Shown here: positions 53,053-59,441 of the stretch, piece by piece
How the letters are laid out: each line of letters starts with the position of its first letter
Position numbering within the stretch: the stretch's first letter is position 1
From: Naegleria gruberi
Lineage: Eukaryota
Assembly: GCA_000004985.1 (NCBI GenBank)
Contig: GG738871.1
Direction: 5' to 3' (one strand)
DNA: 64,000 bases
Program-made: the position numbers and the translations under genes
Notes under the pieces: model-generated
What the model was told of the DNA's origin: nothing
The model's database searches: none
Seen by the model: the letters and a program-made list of their open reading frames with translations, nothing else

Positions 53053-54249
53053 ATGTCAAAACATCAAATAATGATTAGTGTCACTTTGGCATGCTTGTTA
53101 TTGGTGACGACCGTTGCTTCTAAAGTAATAACACCATCATCACGATTAATTTCTGTAACAACTCCTTCCGATAGAGCAGCCATTTCTGTAAATAGTTTTA
53201 TTGACAAATTCCTTGATCCGAAATCGAATTATTTATTCGATACTTTTACCAATTCATCAAAAACTGTTTCACCTTTAACAGGTTATTGGACTTTCGCCCA
53301 AGGATTTCACTCCATTATTGATAATGCCTTTAGAATTTCACAACAAAAACAGAGTTTATTGGATAAACCATTTTCCTATTATGTCCAATTGATTTCACAA
53401 TTATACAGTGGACAAGATAAGATTGGATGGGATAGACCCTATGTGGATGACATGAATTGGATGGGAATTACATTGTTTTGGGCTTTTAAAGTTACAGGAA
53501 ATCAAACTTATTTGGATAAATGTCTGTATCTGTATCAGATTATTGAAGGAAATTGGGACGAAACTTGTTGTGGATCTGTAAAGGGAGGAATTTGGTGGGA
53601 TTATTCTCATTCACAGAAGGCTACTGCTTCCAATGCAGGTCCTGCAATTTTAGCTTCACTTTTATATCAAGAAATTGGAAATCTAAATTATTTGAGTTTC
53701 TCATTGAAAGTTTTCAATTTTTGGAATAATTTAATGGTAGATAAAAAGACAAGTGCTGTATGTGATCATATTTCAGCAAAGGGAGATATTGAATGCTCTT
53801 GGAGATTTACCTACAATGAAGGATTAATGATTGGAGCTGCCACCAATCTCTACAAAATTACAAATAATCAAACCTATCTCAATATTGCTTCTAATATTGC
53901 CAATTTTATGATTAGCAATGAAGTAACATTCTCAAAGATTGGAGGAACTGTTCTCTTCGATGGTACCAATTGTGTTGGAGATTGTGTTCAATTTAAGGGA
54001 ATTGCATTCAGATATTTACAATTTCTCTTCAATAATTTGAATGATAATTATCCAATCAAATCTAAAATTCAACAAGTTTTGAATTCTAGTGTGGAAAGTA
54101 TTTGGGAATTGGCCAGAAATCCTAACCTTGAATTATTTGGAGTCAATTGGGCAGGTCCTTCTCCATCCAATACTTTACAATATTATGAAGCTCAAGTGAA
54201 TAGTGTTGTAATGACTCTTTCACTTGCTGTTTCACAACAATTGAAATAA
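53053..54249 (+). CDS. secreted glycoside hydrolase family 76 (Dfg5/Dcw1-like alpha-1,6-mannanase)
   Basis: Signal peptide; GGIWWDYSHSQKATASNAGPAILASLLYQ resembles the GH76 GG(L/M)WW...N.....A.LA.RLY block; alpha/alpha-toroid-like periodicity. Confidence 0.5.
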   Translation: MSKHQIMISVTLACLLLVTTVASKVITPSSRLISVTTPSDRAAISVNSFIDKFLDPKSNYLFDTFTNSSKTVSPLTGYWTFAQGFHSIIDNAFRISQQKQSLLDKPFSYYVQLISQLYSGQDKIGWDRPYVDDMNWMGITLFWAFKVTGNQTYLDKCLYLYQIIEGNWDETCCGSVKGGIWWDYSHSQKATASNAGPAILASLLYQEIGNLNYLSFSLKVFNFWNNLMVDKKTSAVCDHISAKGDIECSWRFTYNEGLMIGAATNLYKITNNQTYLNIASNIANFMISNEVTFSKIGGTVLFDGTNCVGDCVQFKGIAFRYLQFLFNNLNDNYPIKSKIQQVLNSSVESIWELARNPNLELFGVNWAGPSPSNTLQYYEAQVNSVVMTLSLAVSQQLK

Positions 54250-54689: not shown

Positions 54690-57231
54690 TTATTTCAATT
54701 TCTTTTTACATTTCTTAATCATCTTCTTGGTTGGTTTATCTTGTGGAAATTTAGAGAGATGATCCTGGAATATTGTAAGAGCTTGTTCATAGTCTTTCTT
54801 TGCAACTAGTTCAATTCCTTGATTGTAAATTGCCCATTCTTTTTTCTTCTTCTCCATTTCGTCCAATTCGTACATCCATTCTATATTTCCAAAAGTTTAG
54901 TTTCAAACTATAATCAAAATACATACCATCCATTTGAACTTTCAATTGATTTCCCATTTCAAACAGGTCACATTCCTTCGATTTAATCTTATCAGAAAGT
55001 GAGAAGAAGGAATCGGTATCTTTCACCAGCTCCTTTTCACATACAAATCTAAACTCAAAGCTTTGAGCATTTTCCTTATAAACGCTCTCACTCACTAAAT
55101 TTGGAATATTCAATTTGATCGCTTGTTGAATCATTCTATCAAGATTTGCATTGTAATTTCCAAAAATTGTAAAGTTTTTCATCTTTTCAGTTCCAATATT
55201 TCCAACTGAACATTTTTCAGTCAACATTGAAAATCTCAAATTGACCTTGCTATTAATCTTCTTTGTTCTTTCAATTAATTGTCTTGTTTGATCGGCTGCC
55301 TTCTTTGAATGATCTTTACAATCAAAACTGGAATTCCATGAAAATGTAATACATTGATTTTCAATATTACCCATGAAAGATCCGCTCTTATTGGACCAAG
55401 ATTGGAGCGTGGTGAATAATTCGGTAAGAGTATTCGAAACATCGTTCAAATTTCCAAATAATTCATTCAAATTCTCAATATACAATCTCATAAAGGTAAT
55501 ATCCTTATTGATTAGTCCTAACCTAAACATATTCGAATCTGTCTTAATGAAGAGAATCTTTCAGATTGTCGAGCCATTGAAGAGAATGATCTTCTCGACT
55601 CATATATTGAATTGATCTTAACTAATTTGTTAATTGGTTCAATATTTTGATTTTTGGTTTCTCCCTCAATGGAAGCTAACAAGTGAGCTGGAATGAAGGA
55701 TCTGTATTCGTTGATTCGTTTGGTCATTGATAAGAAGTGAGCTTGTAATTGGGATACTTCAGAAAATCTGGAAGGTTCTACATGGAGTGAATCCAATTCC
55801 ATATTCGAAACCATTTCGAATAGTGCGATTAAATTGTAAAATGGATGAGTAATTTTTATAGAACTGAACATTCCCAATCCAGAACCAAGCAGAAGAATCA
55901 CTAAATTTCCAATCAATGCACAAATAATGGCAATTATCATGTTTCCAATATAATTCCATTGAGGAACTGAAAAGACAATCACCCTTAATATTCTTCAATC
56001 AGAAATCTTATTAGAAACCAAGTGAACTTACCAATCTATATTAGAGGAGGTACATAATCTGAAAATTGCATTTCTTCTCGTTGCAGAATTAACCCCCAAC
56101 ATGACATTACAAGAAATATTCATAATTCCAGGATAGAGTTGACTAATTTCATTGTAAACATGTTTAACTTCTGTATTATTAATTGTGTTGATTGTGTCCA
56201 AATTTGCAGTTTCTACATCCCCTACGGGTGGTGGAGGGAAATTAGCTAATTTTTCATTAAACAATCTTTTCCAATTTAGGTAAATACTTACTTGCAACAA
56301 TTTTCTTCTCAACTTGACCTTCCAAAATAAAAGCAATTGCACCATCAATCGAATCAGTCGATTCTTTCAGAAACCACGAAAAGGTTGTCGTACTGAAATC
56401 CAAATAATGAATCCAATCAAAAACTCGAGTTGAATTTTCCAACCTGAACGAATTGACCAATGAAATTAAAATCACTGGAACTCCAGGACTACTGAATGTT
56501 TCGCTAAAGATTGGAGTATCTGGATATTTAGCAGCAATTTTCTTGACTTGTCCTGTTTCAAAAGTTGGAACTTGACTTAGTAAAATTGGACAAACGACAG
56601 AACTAGCTCCAAAATCACAAATATAATAAGTGTCAAAAATTGGTCGAGTTGTAATGAGGATGAATGGTCTGACATTCTCTTTGGGTGTAACAAACCCATT
56701 TCCATATCCCTCAAAATTATAGAGTTTTACAGCTTCAACAATTGGATGAAGTTTCGTCTCACTTTTTACGAATTGCAATAAATCCAAATTTAACTGATCG
56801 TAATCAGAAGTATTCTGACTGACATGTATTTTCATTTGGTTTTTGGAAGTTTCTGATGAGATGACCAATTCAGACAATGTATTATTAACCTGTTGCACGA
56901 GAAATGCAAATTGATGTTCAGTCAATTGTGTTGCCATCACTTCAACTGTCGAGGCAAAACTTGTTAACCAAATGATGGACGTTACCAATAGAGTAGCCAA
57001 AATCATCATGGATACCATCAAGACAAGGCATATTTTAATACTAATGATGGGTTTTCTTGTCAGAGATGATGCTTCCTCTCGAAGTAAGAGGTCTGTATCT
57101 TGTGAGGTTGGTTGTATTGACATTTTTTTGTGTTTTGATGCCAAAATCTCTACGATTAGTGAGGTAAGGGTAGCACAGATCTTGATTCTTCCATGCCATT
57201 TCCAATTTAAACTCCCATCAAAGATTGTCAA
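54690..57231 (-). CDS. receptor-type class III adenylate/guanylate cyclase, multi-exon (ORF pieces 56257..57231, 56028..56348, 55518..55982, 54811..55530, 54690..54875); splice junctions not resolved
   Basis: N-terminal TM helix (ISIKICLVLMVSMMILATLLVTSIIW) then ~250-aa extracytoplasmic region; second TM segment (IIAIICALIGNLVILLLGSGLGMF); cyclase catalytic homology KDITFMRLYIENL...GSFMGNI...KCSVGNIGTEKMKNFTIFGNYNANLDRMIQQA (cf. YTVIGDTVNTASRMES); TPR-like C-terminal exon. Pieces are collinear on the minus strand in different frames with 45-90 nt gaps/overlaps, as expected for short introns. Confidence 0.45.
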
Positions 57232-57411
57232 TGAAATTTACAATAAAATTAAAGATGACAGAATCAATTGGATGGACGAGATTTTTTAAGTATGAAAGGT
57301 ATTGAATAAGTGAGCGATAACAGTGACTAAATATGACCATCTATTTCGATTTTGGTACCTCAATTCATATTACTAATTTGCTGAGGTGCAATTAAATTTG
57401 GTATTATTTAA

Positions 57412-59441
57412 TTAAATAATTTGAAATTCCTTTTCAATGGTTGATTGAGTGGCTACTCTAAATTCTAATGGTCCATTGTAGAGTGATAATCTGTCTGTGT
57501 CCCAATCGAAAAATGCAGGTCCACAATTATCTCCATAACTGTTTAGTTCAATAATCTTTACAATTTCCTTTTCTAGATCAATGACTACAAAGTCAATACA
57601 ACAATCATCGAGAGGTATCTTGTGTTTGACCTTTTCAAAATAATTCAAGATAATTCTCTTCATGGATTGATATTCTTCTATTGGAACATTTGGAAAGAAA
57701 GATGAACTGAAATATTGAGTCATGGCTGTCATTTTCTTGTTTCTGATAAAAGTTCTGACTTCTCTCCAAATAGGAATGTCAATCCACTCCCTTTGTTCAT
57801 AAAATATGATTGTACATGATTCATTTCTAATATATTCTTATCAATTACTTACCTGATCACAATTTGAATGGGCATTGATTCATTACTTTGATGTTGAACT
57901 GCATCACTTCCCAATGAAACTGATAAATCAACATGAGATCTATAACTAATAGTCATTAATTTGATAAAATCCTCTCCTGATTTGACTTTCATACATTTCT
58001 GAGCACATATTTGAGTTATGGCCGATTGATACTTTTCATGTTTGAGTGAAAGTCGATCTCCACTTGAATCTACCTCCAAGGAATATAGCTCACTCCATTG
58101 TTTGACCATCTCCTCTACCATGGCATCATATTGATTGACTTTGAAAGCAGCATCCTTTGGAGAACGATGTGAAAGTTTAACAAAGGCTTCTCTATTTGGA
58201 AATTCACTCATCACTTGATTGATTCTGTTGGCTAATCCTTTCAAAATTTCTTCCTCTTCACTCTGTGTTTGTGATCCAAAGAACCATCTTTCGTATTCCT
58301 TTACAATGGCTTGAGCTTCTCCATAAGAAATTGAAAGAAAACGTGTTTTGAAAGTTTCCTCACCCAACTTGTCCATCCAAGTATTGCAATCAGTGAGATC
58401 GACATATAAAGTCAAACTAGCATTAATTAATTGCTTCTCTGGGATTATTTTGAACCATTCCAAATCATTTTCCTTAATTTCCAATGTAGATCCATCTTGC
58501 AAACATGGGAAATCTGATAATTTCTTCAACAACTCGAATACAGCATCTCTTAATAGGTAATGATATGAAAAACAGAATAATAAAGTGATTGGAAGAAATT
58601 GTTCTACTTGGAAGAGAAGGAATTTCTTCAATGAGCATAAATCTAAATGTCTAATTCTGAAAACTTCATTGAAAAACTTGAAGAGATTTACAACTCTTGT
58701 CAATTTCTCCAATTGATTGTTATCAGATTGACAATAATAAATTTCCAAGCATTCTTCCATAATTTTGTGAAATAAAAGTGGTTTTTCAATCCTATTACAT
58801 CTGGATATACGGAAAATATGCTTAAATTCACTTTCTCCTTCATAAATATTAAATAAATCTTGCAATATTTCAATTAAACTATTTTCATCATGATTCGAAT
58901 TTTCAATCTTTTCAATTACTTGTTCCAAATTATCCAAACAATTTCCTAACTTGCTTTCGATCTTCCATCTTCTTTCAATAGGTATCTTTCTCATAATACT
59001 TTCATTCTTCATCTCAATTTCATCTTCAGCAAGATTCGAATCGTCATCATTACTAGTGAGTGATGGAAATAATTCAAAATCTGAATTTTCATTCCGATGA
59101 TCCAAATCTTGTTGATCATTTATCAATTTACGAAAATCATCAATTAATTCACTCCAAAATTGTGAATCTTCCGATACTTGTTTTCCCAACTTTTCATTCA
59201 ATGCTTGTTTACAATCTTGTGCAAGATTTGTAATTTTGTAATTGTTATTGCCATCATCATCGTCAGCATCTTTATCAGTGGAGAGAAGAAATACTTTTGA
59301 AAAGAGAGAGCACATTAAACTCTGAGAATTAGGACTCATACGCAAATAGTCCAATACGGTGAGTAGATTTTCAGACATTTTTATTTTGTGCTTCAAATTC
59401 GAAAATGAAGTTGGAAAATTGAGATGCACTTGAAGGATCAA
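57412..59441 (-). CDS. CDC123: Cdc123-family (D123, ATP-grasp-like) protein with long N-terminal extension; 2 exons (57853..59441 or start 59378, and 57412..57742), intron 57743..57852 (110 nt)
   Basis: Motifs REAFVKLSHRSPKDA and DFVVIDLEKEIVKIIELNSYGDNCGPAFFDWDTD match Cdc123 ATP-grasp core. Upstream ORF ends ATC AG|GTAAGT; acceptor TTTTATCAG|A restores frame into ..R NKKMTAMTQYF.. Confidence 0.55.

What the first reader, a model, noticed from the sequence alone, without database searches (positions are those of the whole stretch)
54690..57231. Receptor-type class III adenylate/guanylate cyclase assembled from five collinear minus-strand ORF fragments
A single-TM extracytoplasmic sensor region (56257..57231) is followed by a second membrane segment (55518..55982), a class III cyclase catalytic domain (54811..55530: KDITFMRLYIENL...FTIFGNYNANLDRMIQQA) and a TPR-like tail (54690..54875). 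Receptor-type class III cyclases built this way (ectodomain, TM, cyclase) are known from Dictyostelium ACG and trypanosomatids but are uncommon elsewhere. The ectodomain has no obvious family. I could not place canonical GT..AG introns at the 55518/55530 junction. The gene may therefore use non-consensus splice sites or contain a frameshift.
Basis: partly seen in the sequence, partly recalled or inferred. Interest (0 to 1): 0.5.

Follow-up and report, generated by a model that had tools for sequence, protein, structure and literature searches.

The report
Naegleria Cache–HAMP receptor with dead cyclase domain
The fragments form one Naegleria gruberi gene for a bacterial-style membrane receptor whose "cyclase" domain has the right fold but lacks the residues needed to make cAMP or cGMP, so it is a mis-annotated, probably non-enzymatic member of a large amoeba gene family rather than a rare receptor cyclase.

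Summary
The ORF fragments are real and collinear, and they belong to one minus-strand gene of Naegleria gruberi (54690-57123). The gene has four exons, three short GT..AG introns (70, 48 and 46 nt) and one frame break inside exon 3.

The architecture is N-terminal tail, TM1, double-Cache ectodomain, TM2, HAMP, Ser-rich linker, class III cyclase-homology domain (CHD) and a TPR-like tail. This is the bacterial dCache–HAMP–class IIIb adenylate cyclase layout, already reported for Naegleria and Euglena. It is not the Dictyostelium ACG or trypanosome type.

The window's own CHD does not hit Pfam PF00211. Family profiles and an AlphaFold model nevertheless match solved class III cyclases (CyaB E=1.5e-9; Foldseek E=1e-11).

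The catalytic set is degenerate: metal Asp1 is Tyr, Asp2 is Gln, substrate Lys is Asn, transition-state Arg is Met. Asp1, Lys and Arg are absent from all ~119 related heterolobosean cluster representatives, so this is most likely a pseudo-cyclase receptor.

The frame break is best explained by one missing A in TTAAAG at 55543-55547, a sequencing error or a recent lesion, and not by an intron. A 98%-identical environmental strain gives dN/dS = 0.04 for the N-terminal half.

The public gene model is a chimera with the upstream D123 gene.

The parts
54690..57123 (-). Whole coding region of the gene, ATG 57123 to TAA 54692-54690. It encodes 756 codons once one A is restored.
   Evidence: Splice model and translation. 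End-to-end alignment to N. fowleri FDP41_009271, E=1e-121.
56292..57123 (-). Exon 1: cytoplasmic N-terminus, TM1 and most of the dCache ectodomain.
   Evidence: A 98%-identical genomic contig (L001) has indels only upstream of ATG 57123 and none in the exon.
56222..56291 (-). Intron 1, 70 nt, GTAAGT...GTAG.
   Evidence: The intron is retained and conserved in genomic contig L001. The public model P0001 uses the same splice.
56032..56221 (-). Exon 2: the C-terminal (membrane-proximal) part of the dCache domain.
   Evidence: The conserved CN...R.C...IDW motif is shared with paralogues.
55984..56031 (-). Intron 2, 48 nt, GTAAGT...TTAAG.
   Evidence: Only this acceptor keeps the frame into the conserved motif DW(V/L)I(V/M)FSVPQWNYIG.
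54927..55983 (-). Exon 3: TM2, HAMP, Ser-rich linker and cyclase-homology domain. It contains the frame break.
55543..55547 (-). Site of the frame break. TTAAG is read as TTA-A(A)G, and adding one A restores a 756-codon ORF.
   Evidence: Frame A peptide RFSSL and frame B peptide KTDSNMFRLGL meet here. Together they align to N. fowleri TFSSKLATNSMFKIGF. No GT lies in the 47 nt between the flanking motifs SFSS and NMF (read directly from the sequence shown).
54881..54926 (-). Intron 3, 46 nt, GTATGT...ATATAG.
   Evidence: Splicing creates the family-wide motif DEWMYEL.
54690..54880 (-). Exon 4: TPR-like C-terminal tail plus the stop codon.
56956..57048 (-). TM1, residues 26-56.
   Evidence: One of only two hydrophobic segments in the protein (Kyte-Doolittle maximum 2.62).
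55983..56955 (-). Double-Cache (dCache_1-like) extracytoplasmic sensor, residues 57-341. The span includes introns 1 and 2.
   Evidence: AlphaFold2 model with pLDDT 85.9 and pTM 0.86. The top 50 Foldseek PDB hits are almost all bacterial dCache ligand-binding domains, led by PctD (E=2e-6), TlpA, Tlp3, TlpC, PctA and KinD. hhalign against the dCache regions of bacterial cyclases gives E=4.8e-5. The domain has 5 NxS/T sequons and 4 Cys, of which three are invariant in the three-sequence ectodomain alignment.
55860..55982 (-). TM2, residues 342-382.
   Evidence: Hydropathy maximum 2.84. The FSVPQWNYIG.MIIAI motif is highly conserved.
55677..55859 (-). HAMP domain followed by the conserved YRxFIPxHLL segment, residues 383-443.
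   Evidence: hhalign of 38 family segments against a set of six bacterial-cyclase segments (Pfam-defined HAMP in P0005 and P0017) gives probability 96.1% and E=3.3e-9 over 61 columns. Pfam HAMP itself is not hit.
55522..55676 (-). Ser-rich, low-complexity linker, residues 444-495. It contains the frame break and a 30-nt-spaced direct repeat.
   Evidence: The distance from YRxFIP to the first catalytic position is 74-107 aa in the family members sampled. It is 76 aa here if the stretch is read as coding.
54928..55521 (-). Class III cyclase-homology domain with a degenerate active site, residues 496-693.
   Evidence: A three-sequence profile hits CyaB 3r5g at E=1.5e-9. The AlphaFold2 model has pLDDT 93.1. 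Foldseek top hits are CyaB (E=1.2e-11, TM 0.73), Cya2, OaPAC and CyaC. Catalytic positions read Y, N, Q, T, N, M against canonical D, K, D, T, N, R.
54693..54927 (-). TPR-like helical tail, residues 694-756 (EWMYELDEMEKKKKEWAIYNQGIELVAKKDYEQALTIFQDHLSKFPQDKPTKKMIKKCKKKLK).
   Evidence: The tail is conserved in P0002 and N. fowleri. It is homologous to the tail of bacterial cyclases; P0006 reads AEIYNQGIDLYYQRQWDEAIKQFEQVL...PSQTYIKRC. The family profile aligns through it. The P0005 tail hits Pfam TPR_2 at E=9e-4, and there are weak consensus-TPR PDB hits.

Best explanation
This is a single Naegleria gruberi gene encoding a type-II, two-TM receptor of bacterial design. The order of parts is a short cytoplasmic N-terminus, TM1, an extracellular double-Cache ligand-binding domain, TM2, HAMP, a Ser-rich linker, a class III (IIIb-like) cyclase-homology domain and a single TPR-like tail.

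Shown:
- the gene structure;
- the three domain identities (dCache, HAMP, CHD);
- membership of a large heterolobosean paralogue family;
- loss of metal-binding Asp1, Asp2 (Gln here), the substrate Lys and the transition-state Arg.

Inferred:
- Ligand binding to the distal Cache module is relayed through TM2 and HAMP to a dimeric CHD that cannot cyclise ATP or GTP.
- The protein therefore acts as a pseudo-cyclase receptor.
- Its output is conformational. It could work through its conserved degenerate pocket (FEN..., CGN[VI]GT) and TPR-like tail, or by pairing with or titrating catalytically competent cyclase paralogues. It does not produce cAMP or cGMP itself.

In the reference sequence the ORF is interrupted by one missing base in an A-run inside the linker. 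I judge this more likely a sequence error or allele-specific recent lesion than an intron or an old pseudogene.
For: Organism and family:
- P0001 is a 100%-identical N. gruberi protein.
- 110 cluster representatives reach E<=1e-30.
- Named members are N. gruberi, N. lovaniensis, N. fowleri and Percolomonas proteins.

Gene model: plus collinear alignment to N. fowleri FDP41_009271 (E=1e-121).

Domains:
- dCache.
- HAMP.
- CHD homology: profile against PDB; 14 of 39 relatives hit PF00211; fold match.
- The nearest non-family homologues are bacterial dCache/CHASE2–HAMP–PF00211 cyclases that share the tail.

Degenerate catalytic residues:
- The alignment to CyaB is, and the residue tables are.
- Among the 48 closest and 71 mid-range representatives there is no Asp at D1 and no Arg at the Arg position. 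Lys at the substrate position is absent from the closest set and rare in the mid-range set.
- Canonical D-K-D-T-N-R is seen only in the distant hits. These include Acrasis, Willaertia and Pharyngomonas proteins.

Selection: 13 synonymous against 2 non-synonymous differences to a 98%-identical strain over 319 codons (dN/dS 0.04, Fisher p=1e-7).

Frame break as a 1-nt deletion.
Against: - The window's own sequence fails Pfam PF00211, HAMP and dCache_1. All domain calls rest on profiles and predicted structures.
- Catalytic-residue assignment depends on alignment, and there is a one-residue indel just before the Asn/Arg motif.
- The family keeps Asn, Thr, often Asp2, and conserved acidic residues at D1+2 and D2-2. 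A re-built, non-canonical active site is therefore not excluded.
- No expression or activity data were available.
- The frame break could be genuine. In that case this copy would make only a 495-aa Cache–HAMP protein, or nothing.
- The independent contig L001 stops before the break.
Confidence: 0.7

Rival explanations
1. It is a catalytically active receptor adenylate or guanylate cyclase. Ligand binding would switch on cAMP or cGMP synthesis in a homodimeric CHD.
For: - True CHD homology and fold.
- The class IIIb Thr and the transition-state Asn are retained.
- About half the close paralogues keep Asp at the second metal position. The family conserves acidic residues at D1+2 and D2-2, which could in principle re-form a metal site.
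- UniProt labels N. lovaniensis and N. fowleri relatives as 'Guanylate cyclase domain-containing protein'.
Against: - In this protein Asp1 is Tyr, Asp2 is Gln, Lys is Asn and Arg is Met.
- Asp1 and Arg are absent in all ~119 family representatives, and Lys is absent or rare.
- From established knowledge of class III cyclases, both Asp residues coordinate the two catalytic metal ions, and the Lys and Arg contact the base and the triphosphate. I take it from memory, not from a paper read here, that loss of any of them abolishes or cripples activity in studied enzymes.
Confidence: 0.1
2. The frame break is genuine and the locus is a pseudogene. Alternatively it encodes only a truncated 495-aa Cache–HAMP protein with no output domain.
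For: - The reference sequence has the break, and frame A stops 8 codons after it.
- No frame-restoring intron compatible with the homologues exists.
- The public annotators had to skip the TM2–HAMP region to obtain an ORF.
Against: - Everything else is intact. There are no other stops, all three introns have good splice sites, and all family motifs are kept downstream of the break.
- dN/dS is 0.04 for the N-terminal 319 codons against a related strain.
- A single missing base in an A-run is also what a base-calling or assembly error looks like.
Confidence: 0.25
3. The frame is restored by splicing of a further, weaker intron: 55622..55543 (80 nt, GTTAAG...TTAAG) or 55622..55558 (65 nt, GTTAAG...GAAAG). 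On this reading there is no frameshift at all.
For: - Both candidates are GT..AG, of typical length for this gene, and give an open frame into the CHD.
- The TTAAG acceptor resembles that of intron 2.
Against: - Splicing would cut the HAMP-to-CHD distance to about 50-54 aa, against 74-107 aa in the family members sampled.
- The removed stretch is open in frame, Ser-rich like the homologues, and aligns without gaps to the N. fowleri protein.
- Its GC content (0.34-0.35) is at exon level, above that of the three real introns (0.22-0.33).
- The donor GTTAAG differs from the GTAAGT/GTATGT used by the other three introns.
Confidence: 0.13
4. The fragments belong to different transcripts, as in the public model, which joins the upstream gene to parts of this one.
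For: NCBI/JGI model P0001 (1006 aa) fuses ORF 57849-59441 to the ectodomain and CHD.
Against: - P0001 skips the upstream gene's own D123 C-terminal exon (57412-57732).
- It also skips this gene's start codon and TM1, TM2 and HAMP, and the conserved tail.
- The four-exon model is collinear with full-length homologues in three Naegleria species.
Confidence: 0.02

Closest known systems
Bacterial dCache/CHASE2–HAMP–class IIIb adenylate cyclases with a C-terminal TPR-like tail. Examples are metagenomic P0005, P0006, P0007, P0012 and P0017. The catalytic domains resemble P. aeruginosa CyaB (3r5g) and Spirulina CyaC (1wc1).
   Same: - Same domain order: TM, Cache-type sensor, TM, HAMP, CHD, TPR-like tail.
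- The class IIIb Thr is retained.
- The tail is homologous (NQGI.L....W/Y.EA...F...L...P....I.KC).
- Best profile and fold matches.
   Different: - The bacterial proteins keep D-K-D-T-N-R and pass PF00211 and HAMP Pfam thresholds.
- The Naegleria protein has lost D, K, D and R.
- It carries a roughly 35-50 aa Ser-rich insertion between the post-HAMP FIP..LL segment and the CHD.
- It lacks the terminal PP..W.GV motif.
Naegleria fowleri FDP41_009271 (P0173, 'Guanylate cyclase domain-containing protein') and the N. gruberi, N. lovaniensis and Percolomonas paralogues.
   Same: Full-length collinear homologue (33% identity, E=1e-121). Same degenerate CHD motifs.
   Different: Only 33% identical, so it may not be a strict orthologue. 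The N. fowleri gene has no frame break.
The Cache–HAMP–nucleotidyl-cyclase-III subfamily reported in Euglena gracilis and N. gruberi (PMC6366073), and the 'bacterial-type adenylate cyclase' with a Cache domain in Naegleria (PMC4822843).
   Same: Same architecture and same organism group. This literature already establishes the kind.
   Different: Upadhyay et al. found Cache in a single Naegleria protein. The family here is invisible to the Pfam Cache and HAMP models and has a degenerate catalytic centre. In the passages I read, neither paper mentions this.
Dictyostelium ACG and trypanosomatid receptor adenylate cyclases
   Same: An extracellular sensor linked through membrane to a single class III CHD that works as a dimer.
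   Different: From my own knowledge (not tested here), ACG has a CHASE-type sensor, and the trypanosome enzymes have a periplasmic-binding-protein-like ectodomain with one TM, no HAMP and active catalytic residues. Here the sensor is dCache with two TMs and HAMP, and the CHD is degenerate.
Catalytically canonical heterolobosean HAMP–CHD cyclases: Acrasis kona Cya1 (P0155), Willaertia magna (P0164, P0146) and Pharyngomonas (P0141).
   Same: They share the TM2–HAMP–CHD organisation and match the family profile.
   Different: They retain D-K-D-T-N-R. They are plausible ancestors or partners of the degenerate family.

Membership tests
Class III nucleotidyl cyclase (Pfam PF00211 Guanylate_cyc) | Sequence match to the PF00211 model | tested here: not met
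   There is no hit at E<=1 for either half of the window protein or for the repaired full-length protein. 14 of 39 family relatives do hit, with a best E of 2.5e-10.
Class III nucleotidyl cyclase (Pfam PF00211 Guanylate_cyc) | Homology and fold of the cyclase-homology domain | tested here: met
   The family profile hits CyaB 3r5g at E=1.5e-9, and CyaC and Cya2 at E~1e-4. The AF2 model (pLDDT 93) gives Foldseek CyaB E=1.2e-11 with TM 0.73-0.75.
Class III nucleotidyl cyclase (Pfam PF00211 Guanylate_cyc) | Two metal-binding aspartates | tested here: not met
   The window has Tyr and Gln at these positions. Asp1 is absent in all ~119 family representatives, and Asp2 is present in 23 of the 48 closest.
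Class III nucleotidyl cyclase (Pfam PF00211 Guanylate_cyc) | Substrate-specifying pair (Lys with Asp/Thr for ATP; Glu with Cys for GTP) | tested here: not met
   The Lys position is Asn. The class IIIb Thr is retained (FTIFG). The residues fit neither the AC nor the GC code.
Class III nucleotidyl cyclase (Pfam PF00211 Guanylate_cyc) | Transition-state Asn and Arg | tested here: not met
   Asn is kept (NANL). The Arg position is Met here, and Leu or Met in nearly all of the close family.
Class III nucleotidyl cyclase (Pfam PF00211 Guanylate_cyc) | cAMP or cGMP synthesis | not testable with these tools
   This needs an enzyme assay.
dCache_1 extracytoplasmic sensor | Double PAS-like fold on a long N-terminal helix, lying between two TM segments | tested here: met
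   AF2 model with pLDDT 85.9. Nearly all of the top 50 Foldseek PDB hits are dCache ligand-binding domains, with E down to 2e-6 and TM 0.5-0.58. The two TM segments flank the domain.
dCache_1 extracytoplasmic sensor | Match to Pfam PF02743 or PF22673 | tested here: not met
   The window protein gives no hit. Paralogue P0004 reaches only E=0.16. 3 of 39 relatives hit PF22673 at about 1e-3. hhalign against bacterial dCache regions gives E=4.8e-5 and probability 68%.
HAMP domain (PF00672) | Roughly 50-aa two-helix module directly after TM2, with a conserved Pro and a DE.g.L connector | tested here: inconclusive
   Pfam HAMP is not hit. Profile-profile comparison with a set of bacterial-cyclase segments that includes Pfam-defined HAMPs gives probability 96.1% and E=3.3e-9. 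The position and the motif (ITHPF...SEVSQLQ.HF..M) fit.
Dictyostelium ACG / trypanosomatid receptor cyclases | CHASE-type or PBP-like ectodomain, no HAMP, active CHD | tested here: not met
   Here the ectodomain is dCache, a HAMP-like module is present, and the CHD is degenerate. The defining features of those two families are taken from my own knowledge.
Discoban/bacterial-type Cache–HAMP–class III cyclase subfamily (PMC6366073, PMC4822843) | TM, Cache, TM, HAMP and a single NCIII domain, in Naegleria or Euglena | tested here: met
   The architecture is established.

The most novel reading that the evidence does not exclude
Heterolobosean amoebae (Naegleria species and Percolomonas) have expanded a bacterial-type dCache–HAMP–cyclase into a family of more than 100 sequence clusters in which the cyclase domain has become a conserved pseudoenzyme. 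It lacks metal Asp1, the substrate Lys and the Arg. It has its own invariant motifs instead: FEN in place of F.GD, an acidic residue at D1+2, and CGN[VI]GT.

These proteins would be ligand-gated receptors that signal through a dead cyclase dimer. They might bind nucleotide, regulate active cyclase paralogues, or carry a different chemistry at a displaced carboxylate pair. The passages of the two architecture papers I read do not describe such a class; I did not search the literature specifically for it.
Probability: 0.55. Interest if true: 0.5.

Novelty: new variant of a known kind. Interest (0 to 1): 0.35.

Why it matters
Naegleria is noted for an unusually large cyclase repertoire. The pangenome paper counts at least 81 (PMC9928731), and my recollection is that the genome paper gives about 108.

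If a sizeable share are Cache–HAMP receptors with dead catalytic centres, then counts of "cyclases" overstate the organism's capacity to synthesise cAMP or cGMP. They would also hide a family of chemoreceptor-like pseudoenzymes in a eukaryote that shows chemotaxis and stress-induced differentiation.

Practically, the public model for this locus is a chimera of two genes that omits four parts of this one:
- the start codon and TM1;
- TM2;
- HAMP;
- the conserved tail.

The corrected four-exon model and the single-base lesion at 55543-55547 are directly checkable.

For this one locus, however, the result is mostly ordinary. It is one more paralogue of an architecture already reported in Naegleria and Euglena.

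Tried and rejected
- Exact-protein contig look-ups found nothing: the neighbouring GH76 ORF, ORF 54811-55530 and P0001. No second assembly across the frame break could be obtained.
- Contig L001, reached through P0052, ends in exon 2.
- MAFFT scattered the separate exon fragments, and those alignments were discarded.
- The third word-indexed homologue search, run with a 39-sequence profile, was swamped by its candidate cap and returned only 5 proteins.
- All GT/GC..AG pairs that restore the frame were enumerated, giving 34 candidates.
  - Most delete conserved HAMP or CHD sequence.
  - The 19- and 25-nt GT..AG options at the junction itself, worked out by hand from the sequence shown, do not restore an open frame.
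  - A 32-nt GC..AG candidate (55574-55543) has an implausible length and donor.
  - Only 55622..55543 and 55622..55558 remain, and they are disfavoured.
- Removing the 30-nt direct repeat in the linker does not fix the frame.
- I did not pursue the amino-acid-sensing dCache motif beyond noting, by eye, that many paralogues carry a S-Y-x-D-like motif where the window has TFSS. I also did not see the R.WY motif I recall from bacterial amino-acid sensors in the family ectodomain sequences printed.
Full report
**1. Observation**

The window has about 34% GC throughout. It comes from Naegleria gruberi, because a 1006-aa 'predicted protein [Naegleria gruberi]' (P0001) is 100% identical to parts of the translation.

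**2. Gene structure**

Reading the minus strand and translating spliced models gives four exons:
- 57123-56292
- 56221-56032
- 55983-54927
- 54880-54690

They are separated by three short canonical introns:
- 70 nt, GTAAGT..GTAG
- 48 nt, GTAAGT..TTAAG
- 46 nt, GTATGT..ATATAG

The start is ATG 57123, not the ORF start at 57231. A 98%-identical genomic contig from an ENA metagenome (L001, from assembly ERZ929261) has 2-nt and 4-nt indels just upstream of that ATG and none inside the exons.

The model is collinear over residues 8-755 with N. fowleri FDP41_009271 (817 aa; 33% identity, E=1e-121). It is also collinear with many N. gruberi and N. lovaniensis paralogues. Only one copy of the family lies in the window.

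**3. The frame break**

Exon 3 changes frame between about 55563 and 55521. Inserting a single A into TTAAG at 55547-55543 gives an uninterrupted 756-codon ORF.

Both frames match the N. fowleri homologue around this point. Frame A reads ...RFSSL and frame B reads KTDSNMFRLGL. Together they align to TFSSKLATNSMFKIGF.

Read directly from the sequence shown, the 47 nt between the flanking motifs SFSS and NMF contain no GT. An exhaustive list of frame-restoring GT/GC..AG pairs leaves only two candidates: 55622..55543 (80 nt) and 55622..55558 (65 nt), both with a GTTAAG donor. Three observations count against them:
- They would shorten the HAMP-to-CHD spacing to about 50-54 aa, against 74-107 aa in the family members sampled. 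Read as coding, the spacing here is 76 aa.
- The stretch has exon-like GC content.
- It aligns to the N. fowleri protein with only a one-residue gap.

I therefore favour a one-base deletion. Whether it is an assembly error, one allele or a fixed lesion cannot be decided here, because L001 ends in exon 2.

Against old pseudogenisation, exons 1-2 differ from L001 by 13 synonymous and 2 non-synonymous changes over 319 codons (dN/dS 0.04, Fisher p=1e-7). No other defect is present.

**4. Domains**

*Membrane segments.* There are only two hydrophobic segments, at residues 26-56 and 342-382.

*Ectodomain.* Residues 57-341 carry five N-glycosylation sequons and four Cys. With a 26-sequence family alignment, this region folds with pLDDT 85.9 and pTM 0.86. 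Its best PDB matches are bacterial double-Cache ligand-binding domains almost throughout the top 50. These include PctD, TlpA, Tlp3, TlpC, PctA, Mlp24, KinD, TlpQ and McpU, with E down to 2e-6. A profile-profile comparison with the dCache regions of bacterial cyclases agrees (E=4.8e-5).

*HAMP.* The segment after TM2 (IKITHPF...YRSFIPAHLL) matches a set of bacterial-cyclase segments that includes Pfam-defined HAMP domains, at 96% probability and E=3.3e-9.

*Cyclase-homology domain.* Pfam PF00211 is not hit by the window sequence at E<=1. However, several results establish homology:
- A three-sequence family profile hits P. aeruginosa CyaB at E=1.5e-9, along with other class III cyclases.
- 14 of 39 relatives hit PF00211 individually.
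- The AF2 model (pLDDT 93.1) superposes on CyaB, Cya2, OaPAC and CyaC, with E about 1e-11 and TM about 0.73-0.75.

*Tail.* It is conserved in paralogues. It is clearly homologous to the C-terminal TPR-like tail of the bacterial dCache/CHASE2–HAMP cyclases, which are the nearest non-family homologues.

**5. Catalytic residues**

I aligned all 168 collected proteins to the family HMM and used canonical bacterial cyclases as a ruler. The window protein compares with the canonical set as follows:

| Position | Canonical | Window |
|---|---|---|
| Metal Asp1 | D | Tyr |
| Substrate Lys | K | Asn |
| Metal Asp2 | D | Gln |
| Class IIIb Thr | T | Thr |
| Transition-state Asn | N | Asn |
| Transition-state Arg | R | Met |

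Across the 48 closest and 71 mid-range cluster representatives, Asp1 and Arg never occur. Lys is absent from the closest set and rare in the mid-range set. Asp2 survives in about half of the closest set.

The canonical D-K-D-T-N-R set appears only in the distant hits. These include bacterial enzymes and heterolobosean proteins from Acrasis (Cya1), Willaertia and Pharyngomonas.

The degenerate family has its own conserved motifs: FEN replacing F.GD, a mostly acidic residue at D1+2, and CGN[VI]GT. This argues for a selected, non-canonical function rather than decay.

From established knowledge of class III cyclases, both aspartates bind the two catalytic metals, and Lys and Arg contact the base and the triphosphate. 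A homodimer of this domain should therefore not cyclise ATP or GTP. It also cannot supply either complete half-site to a heterodimer.

**6. Most likely mechanism**

This part is inferred. A ligand binds the membrane-distal Cache module. The signal passes through TM2 and HAMP to a dimeric pseudo-cyclase domain and TPR-like tail. The output is conformational or goes through partner binding, possibly by modulating catalytically competent cyclase paralogues, and not through second-messenger synthesis by this protein.

A re-built active site using the displaced acidic residues is not excluded. I give that about 10%.

**7. Comparison with what is known**

The architecture is the bacterial dCache–HAMP–class IIIb type. 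It is not the Dictyostelium ACG or trypanosome type.

It is already on record for this lineage. Upadhyay et al. noted a Cache-containing 'bacterial-type adenylate cyclase' in Naegleria (PMC4822843). The Euglena genome paper describes a TM–Cache–HAMP–NCIII subfamily related to N. gruberi genes (PMC6366073). Naegleria is reported to have at least 81 cyclases (PMC9928731).

Three points go beyond the passages I read:
- The family is large, with 110 representatives at E<=1e-30. The named members I sampled are from N. gruberi, N. lovaniensis, N. fowleri and Percolomonas.
- For this protein and most relatives scanned, the Cache and HAMP parts go undetected by Pfam.
- Its cyclase domain is uniformly degenerate.

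**8. Annotation**

The public model P0001 fuses the upstream gene to this gene's ectodomain and CHD. The upstream gene comprises ORF 57849-59441 and a D123-family C-terminal exon at 57412-57732. The fused model omits this gene's start codon and TM1, TM2 and HAMP, and the tail. That appears to be a gene-prediction workaround for the frame break.

**9. Verdict**

This is one more paralogue of a known kind, with a probably dead cyclase domain and a single-base lesion. As a single locus it is of modest interest. The family-level pseudo-cyclase pattern is the part worth following up.

Noticed in passing
window 57412-59441 (-) and 54690-57123 (-): The public N. gruberi model P0001 (1006 aa) is a chimera. 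It joins the upstream gene (ORF 57849-59441) to this gene's ectodomain and CHD. It skips the upstream gene's D123-family C-terminal exon (57412-57732; Pfam D123 E=8e-5). It also skips this gene's start codon and TM1, TM2 and HAMP, and the tail.
   Followed up: partly
window 53053-54249 (+): A single-exon 398-aa ORF just downstream is a glycoside hydrolase family 76 protein (Pfam E=7e-32) with an N-terminal signal-like hydrophobic stretch. It converges on the receptor gene.
   Followed up: partly
L001:1-2659 (ENA assembly ERZ929261, run ERR1078381, project PRJEB11402), matching roughly window 56130-57350 and beyond: An environmental metagenome contig is about 98% identical to this locus, including intron 1 and the upstream D123 exon. 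A close N. gruberi relative was therefore present in that sample. The differences are almost all synonymous.
   Followed up: yes
window 55545-55600 (-): The Ser-rich linker contains an imperfect direct repeat spaced 30 nt apart (GAAGATCATTCTCTTCA / GAAAGA--TTCTCTTCA, encoding RRSFSS / ERFSS). The frame break lies immediately after the second copy. This suggests slippage-prone sequence.
   Followed up: partly
family proteins P0022-P0135 (CHD region); window 55370-55500 (-): The degenerate CHD family has its own near-invariant motifs: FEN where canonical cyclases have F.GD, an acidic residue two positions after the lost Asp1, and CGN[VI]GT. On neighbouring strands the two acidic residues might sit next to each other, one rung away from the canonical metal site.
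   Followed up: no
family members in alignment A6 (for example P0092, P0079, P0095): Some more distant family members are 1100-1300 aa long. They carry N-terminal ankyrin repeats (3 of 39) or a NIT nitrate/nitrite-sensing domain (2 of 39, E=1e-30) ahead of the Cache–HAMP–CHD core.
   Followed up: no
ectodomain, window about 56480-56560 (-): By eye, many paralogues carry a S-Y-x-D-like motif at the position where, from memory, bacterial dCache_1 domains have their ligand-contacting Y.D. The window protein reads TFSS there, so its ligand pocket may differ from that of its paralogues.
   Followed up: no
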